Assembly: GCA_003512525.1 (NCBI GenBank)
Contig: DOQG01000071.1
Span: forward strand, 1,587-65,586
Direction: 5' to 3'
DNA length: 64,000 nt
From: Oscillospiraceae bacterium
GTDB lineage: Bacteria > Bacillota > Clostridia > Oscillospirales > Ruminococcaceae
Part shown: positions 4,641 through 43,443 of the stretch, in pieces
How positions within the stretch are numbered: the stretch's first letter is position 1
Layout: each line of letters opens with the position of its first letter
Notes under the pieces: model-generated
What the model was told of the DNA's origin: nothing
Database searches by the model: none
The model's input: the letters and a program-made list of their open reading frames with translations, nothing else
Position numbers and translations under genes: made by a program

Positions 4641-4982
4641 ATGGACGCATTAAAACTCATTGCACAGGACAGCCTTAAGGCTGACGCACCTAAGTTCAAT
4701 GTAGGTGACACAGTTAAGGTACACGTACGCATCGCCGAAGGCGACAAGTTCCGTATCCAGGTATTCGAGGGTACAGTAATTGCCAAGAAGCACGGCGGCG
4801 TAAGCGAAACTTTCACGGTAAGAAGAGTAGCTCACGGCTGCGGTATCGAGAGAGTATTCCCTCTGCACTCACCCACAGTAGAAAAGGTTGAAGTTGTAAG
4901 AGAAGGTAAGGTTCGCAGAGCTAAGCTTTACTACCTTCGCGACAGAGTCGGTAAGGCAGCTAAGGTTAAGTCAAAGATCTAA
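4641..4982 (+). CDS. rplS: 50S ribosomal protein L19
   Basis: Full-length match to L19 (..[33 protein letters not shown]..); RBS AGGAGG upstream. Confidence 0.95.
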
Positions 4983-5070
4983 GACCTTACATCATTTCCT
5001 CATCGAATTTTCAAGGCAGTGGCGATATGCCACTGCATAAATTCGATATTTTGTTTTGAAGGGACGCACT

Positions 5071-5670
5071 ATGGAAGAAAAGATCACAACGGAAAATGAA
5101 AATAACGGCACTGCTGATAAGAAAAATTTTTTCGCCGATATGTTCGACTGGATGTGCAGTATTTTTTCAGCCATATTGTGCTTTATTGTAATATTCACAC
5201 TGTTTGCCCGTGTTATTACGGTCGACGGCGAATCGATGGTTCCGACACTTCAAAATCAACAAAGACTTATTGTGTCGGATATGTTCTATACTCCGCAGTA
5301 CGGAGATATCGTCATACTTTATGCGGATAAGCTGGCAAATGAAGCAACGCGGAGCTACGGAAAGCCGATAGTCAAGAGAGTTATCGGTCTGCCGGGAGAT
5401 AAGATCAAAATAGATTTTGTTAACGGCATTGTATACAGAAACGGTGAAGCGCTGACAGAGGAGTACACAAATACTCCGACCAATCTTCCCGAAAACTTCC
5501 CCATAAACGGTGAAATCACGGTTGAAGAGGGAAAGGTATTCGTACTGGGCGATAACAGAAATAACTCAAAGGACAGCAGAAGCAATGATGTTGGACAGGT
5601 CGATATGCGTTATATAATGGGTAAGGCGTATTTAAGGATCTGGCCTTTGAACGCATTGGGAACGGTATAA
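5071..5670 (+). CDS. lepB: signal peptidase I
   Basis: N-terminal TM anchor, catalytic Ser box GESMVPT, KRVIGLPGD and GDNRNNSKDSR boxes. Confidence 0.9.
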   Translation: MEEKITTENENNGTADKKNFFADMFDWMCSIFSAILCFIVIFTLFARVITVDGESMVPTLQNQQRLIVSDMFYTPQYGDIVILYADKLANEATRSYGKPIVKRVIGLPGDKIKIDFVNGIVYRNGEALTEEYTNTPTNLPENFPINGEITVEEGKVFVLGDNRNNSKDSRSNDVGQVDMRYIMGKAYLRIWPLNALGTV

Positions 5671-32342: not shown

Positions 32343-32361
32343 GATAGAATAAGATACAGAT

Positions 32362-32385
32362 AAACCGCAGGCGTACCTGCGGTTT
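32362..32385 (+). repeat. 24-bp hairpin aaaccgcaggcgtacctgcggttt, copy 1 (spoIIIAH terminator-like)
   Basis: Perfect direct repeat with copy 2 at 32561-32584; the unit itself is a 9-bp-stem hairpin. Confidence 0.9.
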
Positions 32386-32560
32386 CAGTCTGTCGAAAAA
32401 CCTCTTGCTTATTTAAAAATGGGGTCGCAGGGGCGTAGCCCCCGACAGGGACTAGGGGCGGTAGCCCCAGCAAAATAGCCCCTTTCAGGGGGAAAGGGGT
32501 TTGGGGATAGGGATAATAAATCAGAAGTTTATTTCAAAAACAGACTTTTTCTACAAGCTG
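32386..32560 (+). other. 175-bp GC-rich, hairpin-dense insert bracketed by the duplicated 24-bp hairpin (miniature element or att scar)
   Basis: Multiple GGGGC..GCCCC stem-loops (ggggcgtagcccc, ggggcggtagcccc, cccctttcaggggg). Imperfect terminal inverted repeats cagtctgtcgaaaaa / aaaaacagacttttt. No ORF. Confidence 0.6.
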
Positions 32561-32584
32561 AAACCGCAGGCGTACCTGCGGTTT
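32561..32584 (+). repeat. 24-bp hairpin direct repeat, copy 2
   Basis: Identical to 32362-32385. Confidence 0.9.
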
Positions 32585-32620
32585 ATTTTGATGTAAATAA
32601 CGACAAATAAGGTTGACAAA

Positions 32621-32917
32621 GTGCTGTCCGACAAACAGAACTATCGGTACGAGTATCTGCTCCATACTCCCGACGGCAAGCAGTTCATTTACCGCAACTA
32701 CTATGATTCCTACTGGACACCTGTTATGGAACTGATCGGCTGCTCACACAAGCCCCACGATACCCGTCACACCTGCATCTCGATGATGACCGAGAAAGAG
32801 GTATCGCCTACGCTGATAAAGAAGATCGTCGGTCATTCGGGTGCAATGTCGCTGACCGAGAAGGTGTACACGCACGTTAATGCGCAGGAGCTGTTGGACG
32901 CTATTAATAGGATATAG
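32621..32917 (+). pseudogene. tyrosine recombinase / phage integrase, C-terminal catalytic fragment only
   Basis: HDTRHTCISMM (HxxR box II) and IVGHS..VYTH (His..Tyr nucleophile) motifs cover only about 98 aa of a protein that is normally 350-400 aa; the N-terminal domains are missing. Confidence 0.7.
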
Positions 32918-32929
32918 GCATAAATAAAC

Positions 32930-32962
32930 CGCTGAGGGATGTGCTTCCTCAGCGTTTTTTTA
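32930..32962. terminator. bidirectional rho-independent terminator (serves the integrase fragment on + and the TIR gene on -)
   Basis: cgctgagg/cctcagcg stem flanked by an A-run and a T-run. Confidence 0.8.
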
Positions 32963-32964
32963 AT

Positions 32965-33759
32965 TTATTTTGATGATTTTGGATAGATGATTTCATATAA
33001 AACGTCTAATGGTTCTTCCTTGCACATAATAGAGCGATTATTCCATTTATCTCTCCATGACAATAAAGTATTATCATCTATTCGTGTAAGCTCTTTGAGA
33101 ATTTTGGAAACATCATATTTTATATTAATATCACTATATGCAGAGTGTTCTAAAATGATTTTTCTGGGTTGTGTCGATTTTATTAATGTCATCATTGACA
33201 ATTCGTAATAAATCCAAGGTGATAGTGTTGCTTCGCTTTTTTTGATTTTTGTAAGTTCATCACTCATGCTTATTGAATTTGGCGTATTAAAAAAAATAAC
33301 ACATTCAGTTTTGTTTAGCATTTCGGCTAAAGCAGTAGATAACATCATATGAACGTGGCTTGTTGTATAGTTGCGTAAATCATAATCATATGTTTTGCTT
33401 TTGGGATTGTAGCAATATTTGTTGTCTATTTTTTTTAGTAATTTATCACAGTATCCCCATGAACAAGAATCAATGAAGGCTTCTAATCCAAAAGTATCAT
33501 ATAACCAGCCTGCAAACGCCTTTACTTTATTTATATCCTTGTGTGAATGTGATATAAAAATATCCTTATCAGAAATCGAAAACCAATGTTCTTTTAAGTC
33601 GGAACCGTTAATTACACCATCTTCTGTTATATATTTGGATAAGCAATCCTGTACTTCCTTTTCATGTTGACTGAATAGCTCGCTCCCTTTTGTAAGATGT
33701 TGGTTTAAAGTGTTGTTATAAAAAAAGTTGGATGGGCTATAGTTAAATCTTGAAAACAT
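32965..33759 (-). CDS. TIR-domain protein (predicted NAD+-consuming TIR; conserved W..E(L) catalytic-Glu motif present)
   Basis: Positions 76-190 align with TIR_2/BtpA-type TIR: betaA DIFISHSHKD, alphaA, betaB LEAFID, betaC ECVIFFN..SISMS, alphaC SPWIYYELSMM with the Glu at the NADase catalytic position. Low GC (about 31 percent). Second gene of a two-gene operon. Confidence 0.75.
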   Translation of the reverse strand: MFSRFNYSPSNFFYNNTLNQHLTKGSELFSQHEKEVQDCLSKYITEDGVINGSDLKEHWFSISDKDIFISHSHKDINKVKAFAGWLYDTFGLEAFIDSCSWGYCDKLLKKIDNKYCYNPKSKTYDYDLRNYTTSHVHMMLSTALAEMLNKTECVIFFNTPNSISMSDELTKIKKSEATLSPWIYYELSMMTLIKSTQPRKIILEHSAYSDINIKYDVSKILKELTRIDDNTLLSWRDKWNNRSIMCKEEPLDVLYEIIYPKSSK

Positions 33760-33793
33760 AATATCACCTTCTTACAAACCATAAAACAACTTC

Positions 33794-34207
33794 TCATTTA
33801 ATGGTAAGATATATTACTCCAGCGCAAACTAAAGCTAATGGTAAATAAAAAAATGACTCTGTTGGAGAAATAAAACAAGCCCAAAAAGTATTTCTTCCTC
33901 CACCAAACTCTTTCTTTGTAGCTGATAATGAGAAATCAATATCATTTTCTTTGGTGGAACGCACTTTATTGTACAATTCCCTATATAGGCGTTCTTGAAG
34001 AAGGTAATAGGAATCAAGTAACCAAAATACTATTATAGGAATATAGGCGACCAAGAAATACATTTTATTTGCATCTTTTTCAGCTAAAGCCATTATACCA
34101 GCTACAAGAGTAACTGCCCACCCTTTCAATATAAAAGAATTGCTTGCCATGCGCTTTATTACATCTTGCACCATTTCGAGATGTTTGATTTTATTCTCGT
34201 TATTCAT
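33794..34207 (-). CDS. small 3-TM membrane protein, SLATT-like (candidate effector or partner of the TIR protein)
   Basis: 137 aa: N-terminal amphipathic helix, TM1 ILKGWAVTLVAGIMALA, TM2 MYFLVAYIPIIVFWLLDSYYLL, a 50-aa loop and TM3. RBS GAGGTGA 8 nt before the ATG. 34 nt upstream of the TIR gene on the same strand; low GC. Confidence 0.6.
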   Translation of the reverse strand: MNNENKIKHLEMVQDVIKRMASNSFILKGWAVTLVAGIMALAEKDANKMYFLVAYIPIIVFWLLDSYYLLQERLYRELYNKVRSTKENDIDFSLSATKKEFGGGRNTFWACFISPTESFFYLPLALVCAGVIYLTIK

Positions 34208-34273
34208 AATAAATCACCTCATATAACCCTTATATGGAAAAGGCATTCACCAAACGATGAATGCCTTGTTTTT

Positions 34274-34306
34274 GTTAGTTACCCGTTAGTTACGCGTTAG
34301 TTACCG
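34274..34306. repeat. 3 tandem copies of an 11-mer gttagttacNc (GTAACTAAC iterons on the - strand)
   Basis: gttagttaccc gttagttacgc gttagttaccg read directly; located between the rpsI 3' end and the TM gene. Confidence 0.8.
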
Positions 34307-35232: not shown

Positions 35233-35297
35233 TCTGATTCTTTCCTTTCAATTACTCTTGAGGTTTTACCTCGTTTGATTATTTTCACAACTTCTAT

Positions 35298-35326
35298 ATT
35301 ATAGTCAAACACCGTCCGTTTGTCAA
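35298..35326 (-). promoter_or_regulatory. consensus sigma-A promoter of rplM-rpsI (TTGACA-17-TATAAT on the - strand)
   Basis: Reverse complement reads ttgaca aacggacggtgtttgac tataat; exact consensus hexamers with a 17-nt spacer. Confidence 0.7.
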
Positions 35327-35674
35327 ACAATTTTTGAGCTAAAATCTAAATATATATCTATATCTCTTTAAATCGCTTTAATTATCGCTGTTTCTCTCTA
35401 TTTCTCGTCTGTGATTTCACTTTGCTTTTGCGTGATGCAAATAAGCAGCGTTTTCGGCAGTTTTTATTCTTTTTCTTTTGCTTTTGCATTGTGGCTCTTT
35501 TACCGTTTCAATTTTGATTATCGGCAGAAAAGTTTGCTTTTATGCGTTTAATGATGCCTTAGTTATCTCTGTCCATTTTGATATTACGGCGTATTTTCTG
35601 TGTTCTTTTATTGCAGAAATTGCGCTTTTGTGCTATGCTTATGTTATCAAATTCATTATAAGGAGCGATGAGGA

Positions 35675-36169
35675 ATGACACAGTACCATAATATTCCGCC
35701 CGTATATGATAAAAACAGCAAAATTCTGATATTAGGCTCTTTCCCGTCTGTGAAATCACGGGAAGCGCAGTTCTTCTACGGTCATCCGCAAAACCGTTTC
35801 TGGAAAGTGCTGTCCGCTGTTCTCGGCTGTGAATGTCCTGTCACCACAGAAGAGAAGAAGGCGATGCTGTTAAGTCATAACATAGCTGTGTGGGACGTTA
35901 TAGGATCATGTGAAATAACAGGCTCGTCAGATGCTTCAATACGCGCCGTAGTCCCTAACGATATAGCGGGACTTGTAGCTAAAACTTCAATCACACATAT
36001 ATTTACTAACGGTGCAACTTCATCTAATATGTACAAGCGCTATTGTTGCAACAGAGTCGGGATAGAAGCTGTCAGACTGCCGTCCACAAGCCCCGCGAAT
36101 GCGTCGTACAGCCTTGAAAGGCTAACAGCGGAGTGGAGCGGTCAGCTTCTGTCCGTCCTGTCAGAATAA
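35675..36169 (+). CDS. DNA glycosylase of the UDG superfamily (DNA-deoxyinosine / hypoxanthine glycosylase-like)
   Basis: 164 aa; ILGSFPS and HPQNRFW motifs in the positions of UDG motifs A/B of family-6-like enzymes. Confidence 0.55.
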   Translation: MTQYHNIPPVYDKNSKILILGSFPSVKSREAQFFYGHPQNRFWKVLSAVLGCECPVTTEEKKAMLLSHNIAVWDVIGSCEITGSSDASIRAVVPNDIAGLVAKTSITHIFTNGATSSNMYKRYCCNRVGIEAVRLPSTSPANASYSLERLTAEWSGQLLSVLSE

Positions 36170-37929: not shown

Positions 37930-37966
37930 TATTTTTATATAATTGTTTATCAGGGAGGAAAAGCCG

Positions 37967-39745
37967 ATGAGTGCATCTGCCCCTACAAGTTCAAAAATCA
38001 AGTTATTCAGAGCTAAGAAGAAAATGTTGAAAAGCTTTATTCTCAGAGATCCTTATCTTGACAGTTCGCTGGGTAATTATAAGCGCGGTTCGCTTTTCCG
38101 CAATGATGTAGTTTTTGTATCGGTCACTGATGGCAGTTTTTCGGCAAGGGTATTCTGTGCTTGCGGTGACGGGTTCGCTTCGGCGTTTGATACCGCTATG
38201 AAGAAAACGGAGAGCTTTGTTGCGGAAAACAATTTTGATCCGTTATGGTTAAAGGTTGATTACATAAACAGCAGTGATATAATAAGCCGCACTGAGTTTA
38301 CCGAAAAAATACGCGGTGCAAGAGAATTTTTCTTCAAGAAGGGTGTAAGCTTTGATGTCGGTTTTGAAACTGCTTTGCTTGAGGCACAGCTTAACTGTTG
38401 CGGGCTTATAGACTATAAGCTCGGAGTACTCAATGACGAAAAGATAAAACAGTATCTGGCGGAATGCGGCACCGTGCTTACTTCGATCCCCGATATGCTG
38501 GTCGAATTTACAACAGTCGGATATATCTGTGATGAGAATAAAAAAATGTACAAGCTCTATCCCGATGAAGAAAATTACGGCAGGAGAATTATCGGTGAGC
38601 TTACAAAGGACGATATAAAGCAAGTAATAGAAACCTCATCTGTTTATCTTGCAAACGCTGTCAAAGATAACGGACAATTTGACTACGGTGTAAATCCCGT
38701 GAACGATTTTCATTTCGTTACATATAACATACTGCGTCATTCCGGTACTATCTGGAGTCTTATCATGCAATATGACATTACAAAGGACGAAAAGCTGATT
38801 TCAAAGATCGAAAGTACCATAAATTTTCTTATGCAGAGTATAGAGTATTCCGATGATGACCACGCTTATCTTGTTGAGCGTAAGGCAGATGAGATAAAGC
38901 TTGGCGGAAATGCGATAGCAATAGTAACGTTATCTACCTATGCGAGCGTATTCGGCAGTAACAAGTATGACAAGCTGATAACTGCTCTTGCAAATTCCAT
39001 ACTTGATATGCAGGAAGCGAACGGCAGCTATTATCATGTATTATCATTCCCCGGATTTGAACGTAAAGAACGTGACAGGATAGTGTATTATGACGGTGAG
39101 GCTACATTTGCGCTTGCCAGAGCCTACAGTGTGACAAACGACAGGCGTTATCTTGATGCCGCTGAGAAAGCTCTTGATTACTTTATAGAAAACGATTATA
39201 CTCGTTTCTGCGATCATTGGATAGCATACGCGGTAAACGAAGTCACGATTTATGATCCGAAAGAGCGCTATCTCAACTTTGGACTTAAAAACGCAAACGA
39301 TAATCTCGGGAAGATTTTTAATCAGGATACAACATTCCATACGTTCCTTGAACTTCTTATGGCGGCATTCAGTCTTTATGAGCGCATAAAGGAAAAGAAA
39401 ATATATGCTTCATATATGCAGAAGTTCAACTTTGAGGCTTTCATACGAACCATTTACAGACGTGCTCACTATATGCTCGGCGGTTATCTGTATCCCGAAA
39501 CCGCAATGTATATGAAAGTGCCGTTATCGGTCGCTTATACATTCTGTGTGCGTCACGACAGCTACAGAATAAGAATAGACGATGTTCAGCATTATATCGG
39601 AGGTTATTATAATTTCTACAACAATTTTGACAAACTTGATGAATATTACAAGGATATCATCGACAAACCGAAAACAGCACAAATCGATACGAATGCGGAC
39701 AGCGAACGAGCATCGTTTGTAAACTGGATACTCAGCAATATATAA
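37967..39745 (+). CDS. hypothetical cytosolic protein, 592 aa (no recognisable catalytic signature; possibly alpha-helical toroid-like)
   Basis: Strong RBS GGGAGGAA 6 nt before the ATG at 37967. No signal peptide or TM segment. No motif I can assign. Confidence 0.5.
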   Translation: MSASAPTSSKIKLFRAKKKMLKSFILRDPYLDSSLGNYKRGSLFRNDVVFVSVTDGSFSARVFCACGDGFASAFDTAMKKTESFVAENNFDPLWLKVDYINSSDIISRTEFTEKIRGAREFFFKKGVSFDVGFETALLEAQLNCCGLIDYKLGVLNDEKIKQYLAECGTVLTSIPDMLVEFTTVGYICDENKKMYKLYPDEENYGRRIIGELTKDDIKQVIETSSVYLANAVKDNGQFDYGVNPVNDFHFVTYNILRHSGTIWSLIMQYDITKDEKLISKIESTINFLMQSIEYSDDDHAYLVERKADEIKLGGNAIAIVTLSTYASVFGSNKYDKLITALANSILDMQEANGSYYHVLSFPGFERKERDRIVYYDGEATFALARAYSVTNDRRYLDAAEKALDYFIENDYTRFCDHWIAYAVNEVTIYDPKERYLNFGLKNANDNLGKIFNQDTTFHTFLELLMAAFSLYERIKEKKIYASYMQKFNFEAFIRTIYRRAHYMLGGYLYPETAMYMKVPLSVAYTFCVRHDSYRIRIDDVQHYIGGYYNFYNNFDKLDEYYKDIIDKPKTAQIDTNADSERASFVNWILSNI

Positions 39746-39765
39746 CTCTGTGAGAGGTAAAGCTT

Positions 39766-42700
39766 ATGAATTTTAAGCAGTTGCGTGAACAGCAGCCGCA
39801 ATTTTCTGTTACCGTAAAGACGGGCGAGGGAGTTGTAGAGCTGATATGGGACAATATAAAATATGCGGATGGATATCGCGTGTTTTCATCACCGCTTGGG
39901 AAAAATCACTTTACCGGTGTGATGAATGTAAAGGATTCAAGAGCGGTGATAAAGAAACGCACAAACGGTCTGCCGCTTAAGTATAAGGTCAAGGCGTACA
40001 GAATTGCGGACGGACCGGATAATTTTTTCGGAGAGTCGGAGATAGTTGCGGCGTGTCCTCTTGAAACGCCCCGAAAGCTGACGGCGATTATAGGCGCAGA
40101 CGGTGTATGCACTTTGTCTTGGCGTTATAATTCACAGTGCGATGGCTATAAGATATATGCCGACGCAAACGAAAGCGGAAAGTATACATTTGTTTGTTAT
40201 AGCAAAAATACGTCCTGCAAACTCGAAAACTATACAAAGAGCGGTAAGGTTTCGTTTACGGTACGCAGTTTTGTGATGGTTGAGCATGAGGAAAAACTCA
40301 GCGTTTCCTGTGCACCTGCTGTGGCTGTCATTCCGAAAGCAAAGGGCGCAAAAGCACCTCAGCCTGTCCACTCGGGCGTAAAAAAAAGTGCGGGTGTTTA
40401 CAAAAACAGGCGCTTTTCGGGCAGTGACGGAAGGCTATGTAACGACCATCATAAATGCACGATAATGATCGGCGGAGATATAACGGTTGCGGCGCAGATG
40501 CAGAAGAATGCAGCATTGGGTATGCCTGTCTTTGATGAGGCTTTTTCATCACTGGGCGGAATATTCGGTTCGTTTGATTTTTCGGTCGCCACGCTTGATA
40601 CAGATCTTAACGATAAAAAAGCATACGCATTTGAAGACAGCAGGAGTATAAATTGCCCGTCTTCTGTTGCCGATGCTGTGTGCAAAAGCGGGATCGATGC
40701 GCTTGCAGTCAATGCAGGACTTCTTCAGCGTGCACCTCAGTCGCTTGAAAAGTATCCGTTGACGGTTATAAGCGAAAGTGACTGTATGCTAGGCGGAGTT
40801 AAGTATTCCGTTGTTGATATCAATAATATCAGTGTCGGTTTTGTTTCGGCTACTGTAAATAAGGATATATCCCAGTATGTATCAAAGCTCAGGAAAAGCG
40901 GAGCGGAATACATATTTCTTTTTTGCTCGTGGAATGAACGGCATACACCTGTTGTAAAACCCAAATGGCGCAATGCGGCAAAAAAAGCGGCAGAAAGCGG
41001 TGTTGATTTTATTGTCGGAAACGGACTGAATGCAATTGCGGAGTATGATGTTATAGAATGCACCGATGGCAGAAAAGTTCCTGTTGCGTATTCTCTAGGC
41101 TCGCTTATACCTGCTGATTATGCAACAAGATTTGAAACAATAGGCGCTTTGCTTTGCGTCAGGCTGAAGAGAGATGTTGCAAGCGGCGGCGTTTTTACCG
41201 ACTTTGTCGGATATATCCCATATGCATTCAAGGACTATGGAGCAGAGCATCGCGCAGTGCTTTTGACAGACGATAATGTGCACTATTTTGGGTTGTCCGA
41301 ATATGATTCGTTCAGAAAGCAGATAGTAAATGCCCTCGGCGGTAAGATAGATCTTGCGCGTTATGCGGTGAAGACCGAGCAGCAGTCATTCGCACTTTTG
41401 GGCTCTGCACTTATATCGGAGCTTTTCAAGGGTGACGAAGATGTTGAAACCGACCGTTCCCATCTGTTCATATCACAGCTTACTATGTATGGAACGCATT
41501 GTGACGTTGATGAAAAATACTTCCGTGACGGTGTAGTACCGCTGTATTACAACCTTTCAAAAGGATATGACGAGTATCTTTCGGATAACAGGTCGGACTG
41601 CATAATAATGGATCTTTATTATGCGGCGGCAACACCTGTATATCAGCTTGACGGAGTGCTTTACTCGGGAGGCAAGGCATTTATCCGGTCACGCTTTTAT
41701 GAGGAAAACAAAAAGAAGCTCAAAAAGCTTGATATAAAAGATGAAGCCGTATGGAAACCGCTTCTGGATAAGTTTATTGACAGTATAACCGCTGTTTATT
41801 CTTCAGACAAGATAATACTTGTCAGGGTGTCAGATCCTAAGCTTTACTATGTAAACGGCAGATATATACGTTCTTCCGACCGTTCATGCAACTTCAAGCT
41901 GCTGCTTGATATGGAGAACTATCTGATACGCCGTGTATCGCCTAAGATAATTGACATATCCCGTTATTATCCCGGAGTTATCAATAAGCGTGGCAGAAGC
42001 TATGCCGTGTGCCGCGACGAGTTGTTCCGCAACAATATTTCACTTGTTGCAAAAAAAATCGGTTCGGGCGAAAAGGGCAGTTACATAAACGCATTGTCAT
42101 ATGACTGTGAAATATGGCTTACGGAAATAGCAGAAAATATCGATGCTATAAAATCAAGCGGCTGTGATAAATTTTTCTTTGCGCATAATAATGCTGTCGA
42201 TTATTTCATAAGTCGCCTGAGCAGTGATTTTATCTGTGCGGAATTTAACGATATACTCAGACTCAAGGAAAGCAATTTTATAACGTTTGAAGAGATAAGA
42301 TTGCGATATGACTTTGGAAAAAACGTTACGCTTAAAAAAGTGTTTGAAGCAGTGTGCGCCATACGCAAAGGAAAAGTCGCTGACCCTGATATCGGTGAAG
42401 TTATAAGGCTCGGTCTTTATGCAAAAGACGATCTGGCGGATATGTTGGCGGCGTTTTTCCGTAAAAAAGGCATCATACCGGATTGCGTGCTTGATAAGTG
42501 CAGCATAGAGTTCTATCTCAAATGTGCAAGATTGTGGCTGACCGGTGCAGACAAGAGTGCTGTGGAGCAGCTTGTATCCGAATATTACAAAAAGAACAGA
42601 CCGTTTGCGTTTGATACGTTTGGCAGAACGGATAGCAAAACTTTACTTTCGCTGTGCGATAAAGCTGTTGTAAATAACTGTATCTGCGGCTTTTCCCCGC

Positions 42701-43443
42701 TTACGGTATGTGAACAGAAAGCCGATGTAGATCTCAGCTTTGTTGACAGTACATCTGATGTGTTCAGAGAACTTACACGTTCATATTTCCCGGACAAGAA
42801 TTCAGATTGGCTGATCGTTGATTTTTCCGATGCGGAAAAAGAACTTTACAGTCACAATAATACATATATTGCGGCGATTGACGGCTTATATGATACAATG
42901 GTGTACAGAGCGTTTATGATCGATGACGAGAGTTTCGCTCCGTATGCCGACGATTTTGACAAGGAATATATTAAAAATGCCGTAAAAGGCTTTGGTAAAG
43001 CGGTAACCGAAAGATATGGCAGCAAGATTATCCTTAGAAAGACGCGCCTTTCGCTTAACCGTCTTGATATGACGGGACGAATAAGACCGTTTGAGGATAC
43101 AGAGTATATTGAAGAAAAGAACCGTCTTACTGCGTATTGCGAAGAGTTATTCATAAAGTATACCGACTGCTTTGTGATTGATTATGAAAGCAGCTATATG
43201 CCTGTTTGCGGCGATAAAAATGCCGATGTAGCTGAGCGTATGCTTGAGAGCGATTTTTATAAAGAAGCATCAAAGGCTGTTGACAAAATACTTTCCGGTG
43301 ATAGCGAAAAGAAGCTTTGCAATGTCGATATTGTCGGTTATATTGAGCGCTGTGAGAGGATAAAGGCGGATAATCCCGATATGAGCGCCGAGCTTTCCCG
43401 GGAAATATTCGGCGGTGCGGCTAAGCTGTTTATGACAGAGTGA
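39766..43443 (+). CDS. large multidomain protein (1225 aa): N-terminal FN3-like repeats, central CapA/PGA_cap-like metallophosphatase-fold domain, about 700-aa uncharacterised C-terminal region
   Basis: Two about 90-aa repeats with DGY(R/K)(V/I)(F/Y) beta-sandwich signatures. TIMIGGDIT..GIDALAVN..FLFCSWNERH..GVDFIVGNG resembles the CapA family. No signal peptide. Confidence 0.5.
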   Translation: MNFKQLREQQPQFSVTVKTGEGVVELIWDNIKYADGYRVFSSPLGKNHFTGVMNVKDSRAVIKKRTNGLPLKYKVKAYRIADGPDNFFGESEIVAACPLETPRKLTAIIGADGVCTLSWRYNSQCDGYKIYADANESGKYTFVCYSKNTSCKLENYTKSGKVSFTVRSFVMVEHEEKLSVSCAPAVAVIPKAKGAKAPQPVHSGVKKSAGVYKNRRFSGSDGRLCNDHHKCTIMIGGDITVAAQMQKNAALGMPVFDEAFSSLGGIFGSFDFSVATLDTDLNDKKAYAFEDSRSINCPSSVADAVCKSGIDALAVNAGLLQRAPQSLEKYPLTVISESDCMLGGVKYSVVDINNISVGFVSATVNKDISQYVSKLRKSGAEYIFLFCSWNERHTPVVKPKWRNAAKKAAESGVDFIVGNGLNAIAEYDVIECTDGRKVPVAYSLGSLIPADYATRFETIGALLCVRLKRDVASGGVFTDFVGYIPYAFKDYGAEHRAVLLTDDNVHYFGLSEYDSFRKQIVNALGGKIDLARYAVKTEQQSFALLGSALISELFKGDEDVETDRSHLFISQLTMYGTHCDVDEKYFRDGVVPLYYNLSKGYDEYLSDNRSDCIIMDLYYAAATPVYQLDGVLYSGGKAFIRSRFYEENKKKLKKLDIKDEAVWKPLLDKFIDSITAVYSSDKIILVRVSDPKLYYVNGRYIRSSDRSCNFKLLLDMENYLIRRVSPKIIDISRYYPGVINKRGRSYAVCRDELFRNNISLVAKKIGSGEKGSYINALSYDCEIWLTEIAENIDAIKSSGCDKFFFAHNNAVDYFISRLSSDFICAEFNDILRLKESNFITFEEIRLRYDFGKNVTLKKVFEAVCAIRKGKVADPDIGEVIRLGLYAKDDLADMLAAFFRKKGIIPDCVLDKCSIEFYLKCARLWLTGADKSAVEQLVSEYYKKNRPFAFDTFGRTDSKTLLSLCDKAVVNNCICGFSPLTVCEQKADVDLSFVDSTSDVFRELTRSYFPDKNSDWLIVDFSDAEKELYSHNNTYIAAIDGLYDTMVYRAFMIDDESFAPYADDFDKEYIKNAVKGFGKAVTERYGSKIILRKTRLSLNRLDMTGRIRPFEDTEYIEEKNRLTAYCEELFIKYTDCFVIDYESSYMPVCGDKNADVAERMLESDFYKEASKAVDKILSGDSEKKLCNVDIVGYIERCERIKADNPDMSAELSREIFGGAAKLFMTE

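What the first reader, a model, noticed from the sequence alone, without database searches (positions are those of the whole stretch)
32965..34207. Low-GC two-gene operon: small SLATT-like 3-TM protein plus TIR-domain NADase-like protein, a candidate undescribed TIR-signalling defence / abortive-infection module
Two co-directional genes separated by 34 nt, each with its own RBS, have about 31 percent GC against roughly 48 percent in the flanking core genes. They sit between a core sporulation operon and a ribosomal-protein operon, next to an integrase remnant and att-like repeats, so they were clearly acquired horizontally. The downstream protein has an unambiguous TIR domain (DIFISHSHKD ... 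LEAFID ... ECVIFFN ... SPWIYYELSMM) that retains the Glu in the W..E(L) motif, which is the NAD+ hydrolase or signal-synthase catalytic residue in BtpA, AbTir, ThsB and plant TIRs. The upstream protein is a 137-aa membrane protein with an amphipathic N-helix, two closely packed TM helices, a 50-aa cytoplasmic loop and a third TM. That architecture is reminiscent of SLATT / 2TM pore-forming effectors, which computational work has repeatedly found next to nucleotide-generating enzymes including TIR. Known TIR systems pair TIR with SIR2/SLOG (Thoeris I), with TM+Macro (Thoeris II), with STING, with pAgo or with CBASS/Pycsar. A TIR paired with only a minimal TM protein and no recognisable ligand-binding domain does not match any of these. 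It would be the smallest such arrangement: TIR signal or NAD depletion on one side, a membrane-disrupting partner on the other.
Basis: partly seen in the sequence, partly recalled or inferred. Interest (0 to 1): 0.85.

Follow-up and report, generated by a model that had tools for sequence, protein, structure and literature searches.

The report
Type V Thoeris anti-phage operon (thsF–thsB)
This two-gene island is a type V Thoeris anti-phage system, a TIR sensor enzyme paired with a small three-helix membrane effector; a close relative of it was tested experimentally and named in a December 2025 preprint, so this is a new example of a known system, not a new kind of defence.

Summary
Two intact, co-directional minus-strand genes lie 34 nt apart, each with its own ribosome-binding site. 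They sit in a ~31% GC block between spoIIIAH and rpsI, next to an integrase stub.

The "undescribed" claim does not hold. [quoted passage not shown] That system was shown to defend B. subtilis and to signal with 3'cADPR (Yirmiya et al., bioRxiv 2025). The 137-aa membrane protein is 45% identical (E 9e-40) to the 141-aa three-TM protein encoded right after that ThsB, i.e. its effector ThsF. PADLOC-DB (2023) already carries models for both proteins (ThsB; PDC-M50A).

In 59 of 80 reference-genome loci holding this TIR family, a ThsF-family gene lies next to it, across many phyla. Elsewhere the partner is a SIR2-SLOG ThsA. The membrane protein is not SLATT.

The operon is a ~1.4-kb cassette, 97–99.8% identical in genomes whose adjacent ribosomal genes are only 62–77% identical. 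dN/dS is 0.07–0.17.

Verdict: a new member of a known kind. The mechanism is inferred by homology. Interest is low.

The parts
33794..34207 (-). thsF: 137-aa three-TM membrane effector (PADLOC family PDC-M50A)
   Evidence: ORF. It is 45% identical (E 9e-40) to the 141-aa protein encoded after the verified Bt ThsB. PADLOC PDLC04686 scores E 6.3e-50. It has three hydrophobic segments, and the AF2 model has three long helices at pLDDT 73.
32965..33759 (-). thsB: 264-aa TIR-domain protein, the predicted phage sensor and 3'cADPR synthase; catalytic-motif Glu186 lies in SPWIYYE
34214..34220 (-). Ribosome-binding site GAGGTGA, 6 nt before the thsF ATG
   Evidence: Read directly from the sequence.
33764..33770 (-). 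Ribosome-binding site AAGGTGA, 4 nt before the thsB ATG
   Evidence: Read directly from the sequence.
34240..34267 (.). 10-bp hairpin between rpsI and thsF, inside the transferred cassette; possibly the rpsI terminator or an attenuator of read-through
   Evidence: Terminator-like scan and sequence. It lies within the block that is near-identical to L017.
34274..34304 (-). Three copies of GTAACTAAC with an 11-nt period at the upstream edge of the cassette; a conserved cis-element, possibly an operator or a recombinase-binding site
   Evidence: These are the only 3 matches in the window, where 0.4 are expected. The doublet pattern is present upstream of thsF in 10 rpsI-linked loci.
32930..32954 (.). 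10-bp GC-rich hairpin between the convergent thsB and integrase stub; a likely bidirectional terminator
   Evidence: T-run on the + strand. The minus-strand tail GTTTATTTAT was read.
32621..32917 (+). C-terminal remnant (98 codons) of a tyrosine integrase, left over from the mobile element that carried the operon
   Evidence: Pfam Phage_integrase scores E 4.6e-8, covering profile positions 94-171 of 172. Intact 345-349-aa integrases occupy this position in L001-L006. Collinearity stops at about 32651.

Best explanation
The locus is a type V Thoeris anti-phage system, thsF-thsB, carried on an eroded integrative element inserted downstream of rpsI.

Proposed mechanism:
1. ThsB, a TIR protein with a family-specific N-terminal helical extension, stays inactive until phage infection.
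2. On infection, its TIR active site (Glu186) converts NAD+ into the cyclic ADP-ribose isomer 3'cADPR.
3. 3'cADPR binds positively charged pockets between protomers of a ring-shaped ThsF homo-oligomer in the membrane.
4. ThsF then breaches membrane integrity, which stops growth of or kills the infected cell before the phage completes replication (abortive infection).

Shown here: homology of both proteins to the verified system, the three-TM architecture, the TIR fold with its conserved Glu, conserved adjacency of the two genes, purifying selection, and horizontal transfer.

Shown elsewhere, for the 44-45% identical B. thuringiensis system: defence, infection-dependent 3'cADPR synthesis, 3'cADPR-specific toxicity, and cancellation of defence by the Tad1 sponge.

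Inferred only: the same signal in this Clostridial member, the oligomeric channel, and membrane disruption. The last two are predictions even in the source paper.
For: - ThsB match. The window TIR is 44% identical (E 6e-61) to Bt DAR 81934 ThsB and 42% identical over its full length (E 6e-71) to B. cereus VD021 ThsB. Both belong to the same TIR cluster (2734579397) and both were shown to make 3'cADPR on infection.
- ThsF match. P0390 is 100% identical to the verified Bt ThsB. Its contig encodes a 141-aa three-TM protein 14 nt downstream, while the upstream 271-aa protein is soluble. The window TM protein is 45% identical to that 141-aa protein (E 9e-40).
- Shared PADLOC models. Both pairs hit the same models with similar scores.
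- Conserved adjacency. A ThsF-family ORF lies next to the TIR gene in 59 of 80 genome loci across many phyla, in either gene order. The pair is also on a C. botulinum plasmid.
- Interchangeable effectors. In loci without ThsF, the partners include SIR2+STALD (ThsA, the known 3'cADPR receptor) in 4 loci. A 72%-identical ThsF sits between two PF08937 ThsB genes inside restriction-modification islands. A SLOG-ThsF fusion exists (P0328).
- Selection and transfer. dN/dS is 0.07-0.17, and the operon is 97-99.8% nt identical in genomes whose rpsI and rplM are only 62-77% identical.
Against: - No experiment has been done on this locus or on any Clostridial member.
- Identity to the verified system is only 44-45%.
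- The source paper reports that a second type V system (Bacillus sp. 1NLA3E, different TIR cluster) was not made toxic by 3'cADPR. The VD021 ThsB makes 3'cADPR, yet its own type IX effector was not triggered by it. Signal identity therefore cannot be assumed across the type.
- The 'DUF2270' label used to define ThsF is not met at Pfam's threshold by the window protein (15.3 vs 25 bits). In my scan it is not met by the verified Bt ThsF either.
- No sigma-70-like promoter was found upstream of thsF.
- The oligomeric state was not modelled here.
- The source is a preprint.
Confidence: 0.87

Rival explanations
1. The architecture is the same (type V-like), but the signal is not 3'cADPR or a second input is required. 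ThsB would make another NAD-derived molecule, or ThsF would need an additional infection cue.
For: The paper reports type V (1NLA3E) and type IX systems in which 3'cADPR did not trigger toxicity. Compared with L001/L018, thsF is only 73% nt identical while thsB is 91%, so effector and TIR have partly separate histories. Identity to the verified pair is only 44-45%.
Against: The window TIR falls in the same cluster as two ThsBs that verifiably produce 3'cADPR. The same TIR clade also pairs with SIR2-SLOG ThsA, the 3'cADPR receptor. ThsF is homologous along almost its whole length to the 3'cADPR-responsive Bt ThsF.
Confidence: 0.15
2. The logic is reversed: the TIR protein is the NAD+-depleting toxic effector, and the small membrane protein is a sensor, anchor or regulator rather than the killer.
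For: Many bacterial TIRs (in CBASS, Pycsar and SPARTA) are NADase effectors. The source paper itself notes this possibility for unverified types. SPARTA TIR chains appear weakly in the Foldseek list.
Against: For the homologous Bt system, ThsB alone accumulates 3'cADPR only on infection, and adding 3'cADPR externally is toxic only when the system is present. The same ThsF family pairs with at least three unrelated TIR families and is found fused to a SLOG sensor domain, which is the behaviour of an effector module.
Confidence: 0.04
3. The operon is a decaying, non-functional relic of a degraded mobile element.
For: The neighbouring integrase is reduced to 98 codons and the rest of the element is gone. 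No consensus promoter was found upstream of thsF.
Against: Both ORFs are full length relative to their homologs (137 vs 135-141 aa; 264 vs 251-269 aa). Strong RBSs are present. dN/dS is 0.07-0.17, and near-identical intact copies exist in other genomes. All family-invariant residues are retained.
Confidence: 0.03
4. The membrane protein is a SLATT-family pore former, making this a SLATT-type (type VII-like) Thoeris that signals with canonical cADPR, as the first reader's 'SLATT-like' label implies.
For: There is a superficial resemblance: a small helical membrane protein next to a nucleotide-signal generator. One of 55 family members gave a weak SLATT_4 hit (E 0.0028).
Against: No SLATT family hits the window protein even at E<=1. 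Among 111 diverse members the recurring weak hits are DUF3278, 8xMP and DUF2270, not SLATT. Direct homology is to ThsF. SLATT effectors go with other TIR clusters in Table S1.
Confidence: 0.02

Closest known systems
Type V Thoeris (ThsB + ThsF) of Bacillus thuringiensis DAR 81934 (Yirmiya et al., bioRxiv 2025, doi 10.64898/2025.12.03.692087)
   Same: A two-gene operon made of a ~250-265-aa TIR protein from the same TIR cluster (44% identity) and a ~140-aa three-TM effector (45% identity). Both pairs hit the same PADLOC models. E186 and the other invariant TIR residues are conserved.
   Different: The gene order is reversed: thsF comes first here, thsB first in Bt. The host is a spore-forming Clostridial gut or rumen organism rather than Bacillus. 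Here the operon is cargo of an integrase element inserted downstream of rpsI, whereas in Bt it sits next to a Gabija-like gene pair. This member is untested.
PADLOC-DB v2.0.0 candidate system PDC-M50 (component A) together with ThsB model PDLC00430
   Same: The window proteins match these models over their full length (E 6e-50 and 1e-72).
   Different: PDC-M50 is only a computational candidate. I found no paper that mentions it, and I could not see what PADLOC defines as its other components.
Type I Thoeris (ThsB + ThsA, SIR2-SLOG)
   Same: The TIR clade is the same: 4 of the 21 loci lacking ThsF carry SIR2_2+STALD next to this TIR. The presumed signal, 3'cADPR, is also the same.
   Different: The effector there is a soluble NADase with a SLOG sensor. 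Here it is a minimal membrane protein with no separate sensor domain.
Type II (TM-Macro ThsC) and type VII (SLATT ThsH) Thoeris
   Same: A TIR signal producer paired with a membrane-spanning effector.
   Different: Type II uses His-ADPR and a Macro domain. Type VII uses canonical cADPR and a SLATT domain. Neither domain is detected in the window protein, and the TIRs belong to other clusters.
Pfam DUF2270 (PF10028), DUF3278 (PF11683) and 8xMP (PF24838)
   Same: Weak, recurrent sub-threshold similarity over the first TM hairpin: 12, 37 and 13 of 111 family members respectively.
   Different: None reaches its gathering score. The family, with 5,026 representatives of 50%-identity clusters, has no Pfam model of its own.

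Membership tests
Type V Thoeris | A ThsB protein with a TIR fold and the catalytic glutamate | tested here: met
Type V Thoeris | ThsB homologous to an experimentally verified type V ThsB | tested here: met
   44% identity, E 6e-61, to Bt DAR 81934 ThsB. The sequence comes from Table S1.
Type V Thoeris | Effector homologous to the verified ThsF | tested here: met
   45% identity, E 9e-40, over residues 3-127 to the 141-aa protein at L096:4773-5198, which follows the 100%-identical Bt ThsB. The equation of that protein with IMG gene 2624526260 is inferred from the consecutive gene IDs, the three TM helices, and the fact that the other neighbour is soluble.
Type V Thoeris | Effector with three membrane-spanning helices | tested here: met
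   Hydropathy segments at 24-43, 47-70 and 117-137, at the same positions as in Bt ThsF. The AF2 model has helices at 3-45, 50-84 and 115-136.
Type V Thoeris | Effector annotated as Pfam PF10028 (DUF2270) | tested here: not met
   E 0.016 and 15.3 bits against a 25-bit cut-off, covering only residues 30-67. The verified Bt ThsF gives no DUF2270 hit at E<=1 in the same scan. This label is therefore a remote-homology annotation and not a usable membership criterion.
Type V Thoeris | thsB and the effector adjacent in one operon, with the linkage conserved | tested here: met
   34-nt gap on the same strand. The pair is adjacent in 59 of 80 genome loci and in metagenomic and plasmid contexts.
Type V Thoeris | Infection-dependent 3'cADPR synthesis and 3'cADPR-triggered toxicity | not testable with these tools
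   Shown only for the Bt homolog.
Type V Thoeris | Protection against phage | not testable with these tools
   Shown for the Bt DAR 81934 and Bacillus sp. 1NLA3E systems in B. subtilis.
Type V Thoeris | ThsF homo-oligomeric ring (AF3 heptamer) with positively charged pockets between protomers | not tested
   No multimer prediction tool was available. The conserved basic residues R19, K28 and R76 are candidates for the pocket.
SLATT effector family (type VII Thoeris / CBASS 2TM effectors) | Match to a SLATT Pfam model (PF18181-PF18186 and related) | tested here: not met
   No SLATT hit for the window protein at E<=1. None appears among the recurring families in 111 members.
Type I Thoeris | A SIR2-SLOG ThsA adjacent to ThsB | tested here: not met
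   The low-GC island holds only the two genes, between the integrase stub and rpsI.
Type II Thoeris | A TM + Macro-domain effector | tested here: not met
   No Macro hit. A 137-aa protein with three TM helices leaves no room for a Macro domain.

The most novel reading that the evidence does not exclude
The ~1.4-kb thsF-thsB cassette (about 34310-32925) may be a self-contained exchangeable unit. It would be targeted repeatedly to the 3' side of rpsI through its conserved 3x GTAACTAAC (11-nt period) array. Its effector gene would be swapped independently of its TIR gene, as suggested by thsF at 73% and thsB at 91% nt identity against L001/L018. This Clostridial branch might also respond to a signal or second cue different from the Bacillus prototype. 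That would make it a model for how minimal Thoeris modules spread and re-pair in gut and rumen Firmicutes.
Probability: 0.15. Interest if true: 0.4.

Novelty: new member of a known kind. Interest (0 to 1): 0.17.

Why it matters
For defence biology this adds little, because the system type, its signal and its effector class were described in late 2025.

It has modest practical value in four respects:
- It places type V Thoeris in spore-forming gut and rumen Clostridia.
- It shows that the ThsF family is very large (5,026 representatives of 50%-identity clusters) yet has no Pfam model. The published 'DUF2270' label does not recover it at Pfam thresholds, so annotation pipelines that rely on Pfam will miss it.
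- It documents very recent horizontal transfer of a minimal 1.4-kb defence cassette to a fixed site downstream of rpsI.
- It shows that a first-pass reading from sequence alone can correctly infer 'TIR plus membrane effector defence' while overestimating novelty.

Tried and rejected
- Pfam and NCBIfam on both proteins gave only sub-threshold hits. On their own these would have wrongly suggested an unclassifiable pair.
- A literature search for 'PDC-M50' found nothing.
- The separate '3TM' effector class in Table S1 was considered as the match. Its TIRs belong to other clusters (2734565194, 2556961318), and direct homology to the Bt ThsF settled the question.
- The afdb50 fold library was unavailable.
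- A PDB sequence-profile search gave only marginal TIR hits (E 0.4-0.7).
- The 24-nt hairpin repeats were tested as att sites and rejected, because both lie on one side of the operon.
- No tRNA integration target lies nearby; the only tRNA is at 130-204.
- Rfam found no leader or riboswitch in the region.
- I first took L016 (RUG13073) to be a close relative of the host. I withdrew this because only the cassette is near-identical, while rplM is 60% identical at the protein level.
- The 484-aa ThsF-containing ORFs in L020 and L024 gave no clear additional domain.

Full report
**1. What is in the sequence**

On the minus strand there are two intact ORFs: 34207..33794 (137 aa) and 33759..32965 (264 aa), separated by 34 nt. 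Each is preceded by a strong Shine-Dalgarno sequence. GAGGTGA lies at 34220-34214 and AAGGTGA at 33770-33764. GC falls to 0.305-0.35 between about 33000 and 34400, against 0.46-0.53 on both sides.

The flanking genes are SpoIIIAE (E 1.3e-42) and SpoIIIAH (E 2.3e-35) on one side, and ribosomal proteins S9 and L13 on the other. Between spoIIIAH and the operon lies a 98-codon ORF. It matches only the last ~78 positions of the Pfam phage-integrase profile (E 4.6e-8), so it is a C-terminal remnant.

There are two caveats. First, Pfam TIR_2 is below its gathering score (17.4 vs 28 bits), so the TIR call needed other evidence. Second, the 24-nt hairpin sequence AAACCGCAGGCGTACCTGCGGTTT is indeed present twice exactly (32362 and 32561; none expected by chance). 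However, both copies lie on the spoIIIAH side, forming 41-nt inverted arms, so they do not bracket the operon as att sites would.

**2. Identity of the two proteins**

PADLOC-DB models gave the first decisive lead. The 264-aa protein matches ThsB model PDLC00430 end to end (E 1.2e-72). The 137-aa protein matches all four models of the candidate family PDC-M50A (best E 6.3e-50, full length).

[quoted passage not shown] That paper defines Thoeris types V-XI. Type V is a ThsB TIR protein plus ThsF, an effector with three membrane-spanning helices, labelled DUF2270. AlphaFold3 models ThsF as a ring-shaped homo-heptamer with positively charged pockets between protomers.

The type V system of B. thuringiensis DAR 81934 protected B. 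subtilis against phage. Its ThsB made 3'cADPR only upon infection. External 3'cADPR, but not 2'cADPR or cADPR, was toxic to cells carrying the system. The 3'cADPR sponge Tad1 reduced defence.

**3. Direct comparison with the verified system**

Table S1 of the paper prints the Bt ThsB sequence. The window TIR protein is 44% identical to it (E 6e-61). It is also 42% identical over its full length (E 6e-71) to the B. cereus VD021 ThsB, which belongs to the same TIR cluster (2734579397) and is also a verified 3'cADPR producer.

To obtain the effector, I searched with the Bt ThsB and recovered a 100%-identical protein, P0390, from the B. cereus group. On its contigs, ThsB (L096:4001-4759) is followed 14 nt later by a 141-aa protein (4773-5198), next to a Gabija-like OLD-TOPRIM/UvrD gene pair. 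The gene on the other side encodes a soluble 271-aa protein. The 141-aa protein has three hydrophobic segments. It is therefore the three-TM effector that the paper lists under the consecutive IMG gene ID.

The window's 137-aa protein is 45% identical to it (E 9e-40, residues 3-127). Both proteins hit the same PADLOC models with equal strength. Both components of the window operon are thus homologous to both components of an experimentally verified type V Thoeris system.

**4. Structure and conserved residues**

In an alignment of 28 family members, including the verified Bt ThsB, the glutamate of SPWIYxE (E186) is invariant, along with the FxSHSH motif. The first ~60 residues form a family-specific helical extension whose role I cannot assign.

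**5. Is the pair conserved?**

The ThsF family is very large. There were 1,297 hits in the word-indexed search and 5,026 representatives of 50%-identity clusters in the exhaustive profile search.

A scan of one genome per species with the TIR-family alignment returned 80 loci. An HMM of the ThsF family finds a ThsF-type ORF in 59 of them. It is almost always directly adjacent to and co-directional with the TIR gene, in either order. The loci come from Bacillota, Bacteroidota, Planctomycetota, Verrucomicrobiota, Cyanobacteria, Proteobacteria and Spirochaetes. A C. botulinum plasmid carries the pair as well.

Where ThsF is absent, the neighbours include SIR2_2+STALD proteins in 4 loci (ThsA, i.e. 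type I Thoeris), further ThsB_TIR genes in 3, and a PNP_UDP_1 protein in 2. Conversely, a ThsF 72% identical to the window protein sits between two unrelated PF08937 ThsB genes inside restriction-modification islands. One family member is a SLOG-ThsF fusion (P0328).

This is the pattern expected of a signal-producing TIR with interchangeable effectors, and of an effector module that accepts signals from different TIRs.

**6. What it is not**

No SLATT family hits the window protein even at E<=1. Among 111 members, the recurring weak hits are DUF3278 (37), 8xMP (13) and DUF2270 (12), all below threshold.

The 'DUF2270' label of the paper is not met at Pfam's cut-off by the window protein. In my scan it is not met by the verified Bt ThsF either. 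I therefore treat it as a remote-homology label, not a membership criterion.

Table S1 also contains a separate, untested '3TM' class. Its TIRs belong to other clusters, and the direct homology to Bt ThsF makes it irrelevant here. No SIR2-SLOG, Macro or cyclase gene lies in the island.

**7. Mobility**

Homologs 77% identical to the window ThsF occur in gut and rumen Oscillospiraceae or Ruminococcus assemblies in the same place: rplM-rpsI-thsF-thsB. They are followed by a convergent, intact 345-349-aa integrase, an HTH protein, a DUF5906 primase-like protein and a MobC/NikA-like protein, which together make up a small integrative mobilisable element. The window is collinear with these loci from rplM to about 32651, inside the integrase 3' end. 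In the window, therefore, the element has been eroded down to its Thoeris cargo plus an integrase stub.

Against L016 and L017, thsF and thsB are 97-99.8% nucleotide-identical to the window, while the adjacent rpsI and rplM are only 62-77% identical. The near-identical block runs from about 34310 to about 32925. It consists of the two genes, ~100 nt upstream and the downstream hairpin, and it coincides with the low-GC segment. This is direct evidence of recent horizontal transfer between divergent hosts.

dN/dS is 0.07-0.17 for both genes in every informative comparison, so the genes are maintained by selection.

The upstream edge of the block carries three copies of GTAACTAAC with an 11-nt period (34274-34304). 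These are the only three in the window, and the pattern is conserved upstream of thsF in ten rpsI-linked loci, even where thsF is only 73% identical.

**8. Expression**

A 10-bp hairpin (34240-34267) lies between rpsI and thsF. No sigma-70-like promoter was found upstream of thsF. The one consensus match (34120-34092) lies inside thsF. Expression may depend on read-through from rplM-rpsI or on a promoter that the scan does not recognise; this remains open. A GC-rich hairpin at 32930-32954, between the convergent thsB and integrase stub, can serve as a terminator in both directions.

**9. Mechanism and confidence**

I conclude, with confidence ~0.87, that this is a type V Thoeris system. ThsB senses infection and converts NAD+ to 3'cADPR through its TIR active site. 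The signal binds an oligomeric ThsF in the membrane, which then disrupts membrane integrity and aborts the infection.

Homology, architecture, conserved linkage, selection and transfer are shown here. Defence and the signal are shown only for the 44-45% identical Bacillus system. The ThsF ring and membrane disruption are predictions even in the source paper.

The main residual uncertainty (~0.15) is whether this branch uses 3'cADPR alone. The paper reports another type V system and a type IX system that 3'cADPR did not trigger.

**10. Novelty and score**

The type was published as a preprint in December 2025, and it is the only paper in the library that mentions it. Both components had PADLOC models in 2023. 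The locus is a new member of a known kind.

The claim of an undescribed arrangement and the SLATT analogy were not.

Interest is low (0.17). The small residual value lies in the host range, the missing Pfam model, and the tidy example of a 1.4-kb defence cassette moving to a fixed site downstream of rpsI.

Noticed in passing
window 34274-34304 (- strand): Three exact copies of GTAACTAAC spaced 11 nt apart (one helical turn) lie about 70-100 nt upstream of thsF, at the edge of the transferred cassette. The array is conserved in 10 rpsI-linked loci (L001-L006, L016-L019), even where thsF is only 73% identical. It could be an operator or a recombinase arm site.
   Followed up: partly
window 32360-32586: Two exact copies of a 24-nt palindromic hairpin (32362-32385 and 32561-32584) form 41-nt inverted arms (83% complementary) around a ~145-nt G-rich spacer, between the spoIIIAH stop and the integrase stub. 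This could be a duplicated terminator, a MITE-like insert or a scar of the element's deletion. It was not resolved.
   Followed up: partly
window 32965-34207 vs L001/L018: The operon is mosaic. Against the same loci, thsB is 91% nt identical (dS 0.30) but thsF only 73% (dS ~2.5). This suggests recombination or effector replacement within the operon.
   Followed up: no
P0328, P0349, P0372 (hits): Longer proteins carry the ThsF module at the C-terminus. P0328 has an N-terminal SLOG (LD_cluster2, E 1.7e-15) and P0349 an N-terminal 8xMP octameric membrane protein domain (E 1.6e-27). P0372 has no recognised N-terminal domain.
   Followed up: partly
L020:2512-3966 and L024:2527-3981: Next to TIR proteins 63-71% identical to the window ThsB, the ThsF-like module (E ~1e-28) lies at the end of a 484-aa open reading frame. 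This frame has only weak hits (SLATT_4 at 0.0028; Iron_permease at 2e-4) around residues 156-266. It may be a multi-module membrane effector or an over-extended ORF.
   Followed up: partly
L096/L097 7249-8759 and 5454-7244: The verified B. thuringiensis type V Thoeris sits directly beside a Gabija-like pair (OLD-like TOPRIM/AAA protein and UvrD helicase) and near a DAC-domain (diadenylate cyclase) protein, so it lies in a defence island. The window copy has no defence neighbours.
   Followed up: no
window 37943-43443: Two large ORFs (600 aa with no Pfam hit; 1,225 aa with weak PGA_cap and DUF6270 matches) lie in a ~40% GC stretch, lower than the ~48% of core genes. This may be another acquired surface-polymer locus.
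   Followed up: no
window 35240-35680: An AT-rich (GC ~0.33) ~440-nt non-coding stretch lies upstream of rplM, with strongly negative AT skew. No Rfam family reached threshold there.
   Followed up: no
ThsF family as a whole: The family has 5,026 representatives of 50%-identity clusters but no Pfam model. The published 'DUF2270' label is not recovered at Pfam's gathering threshold, even for the verified B. thuringiensis ThsF.
   Followed up: yes
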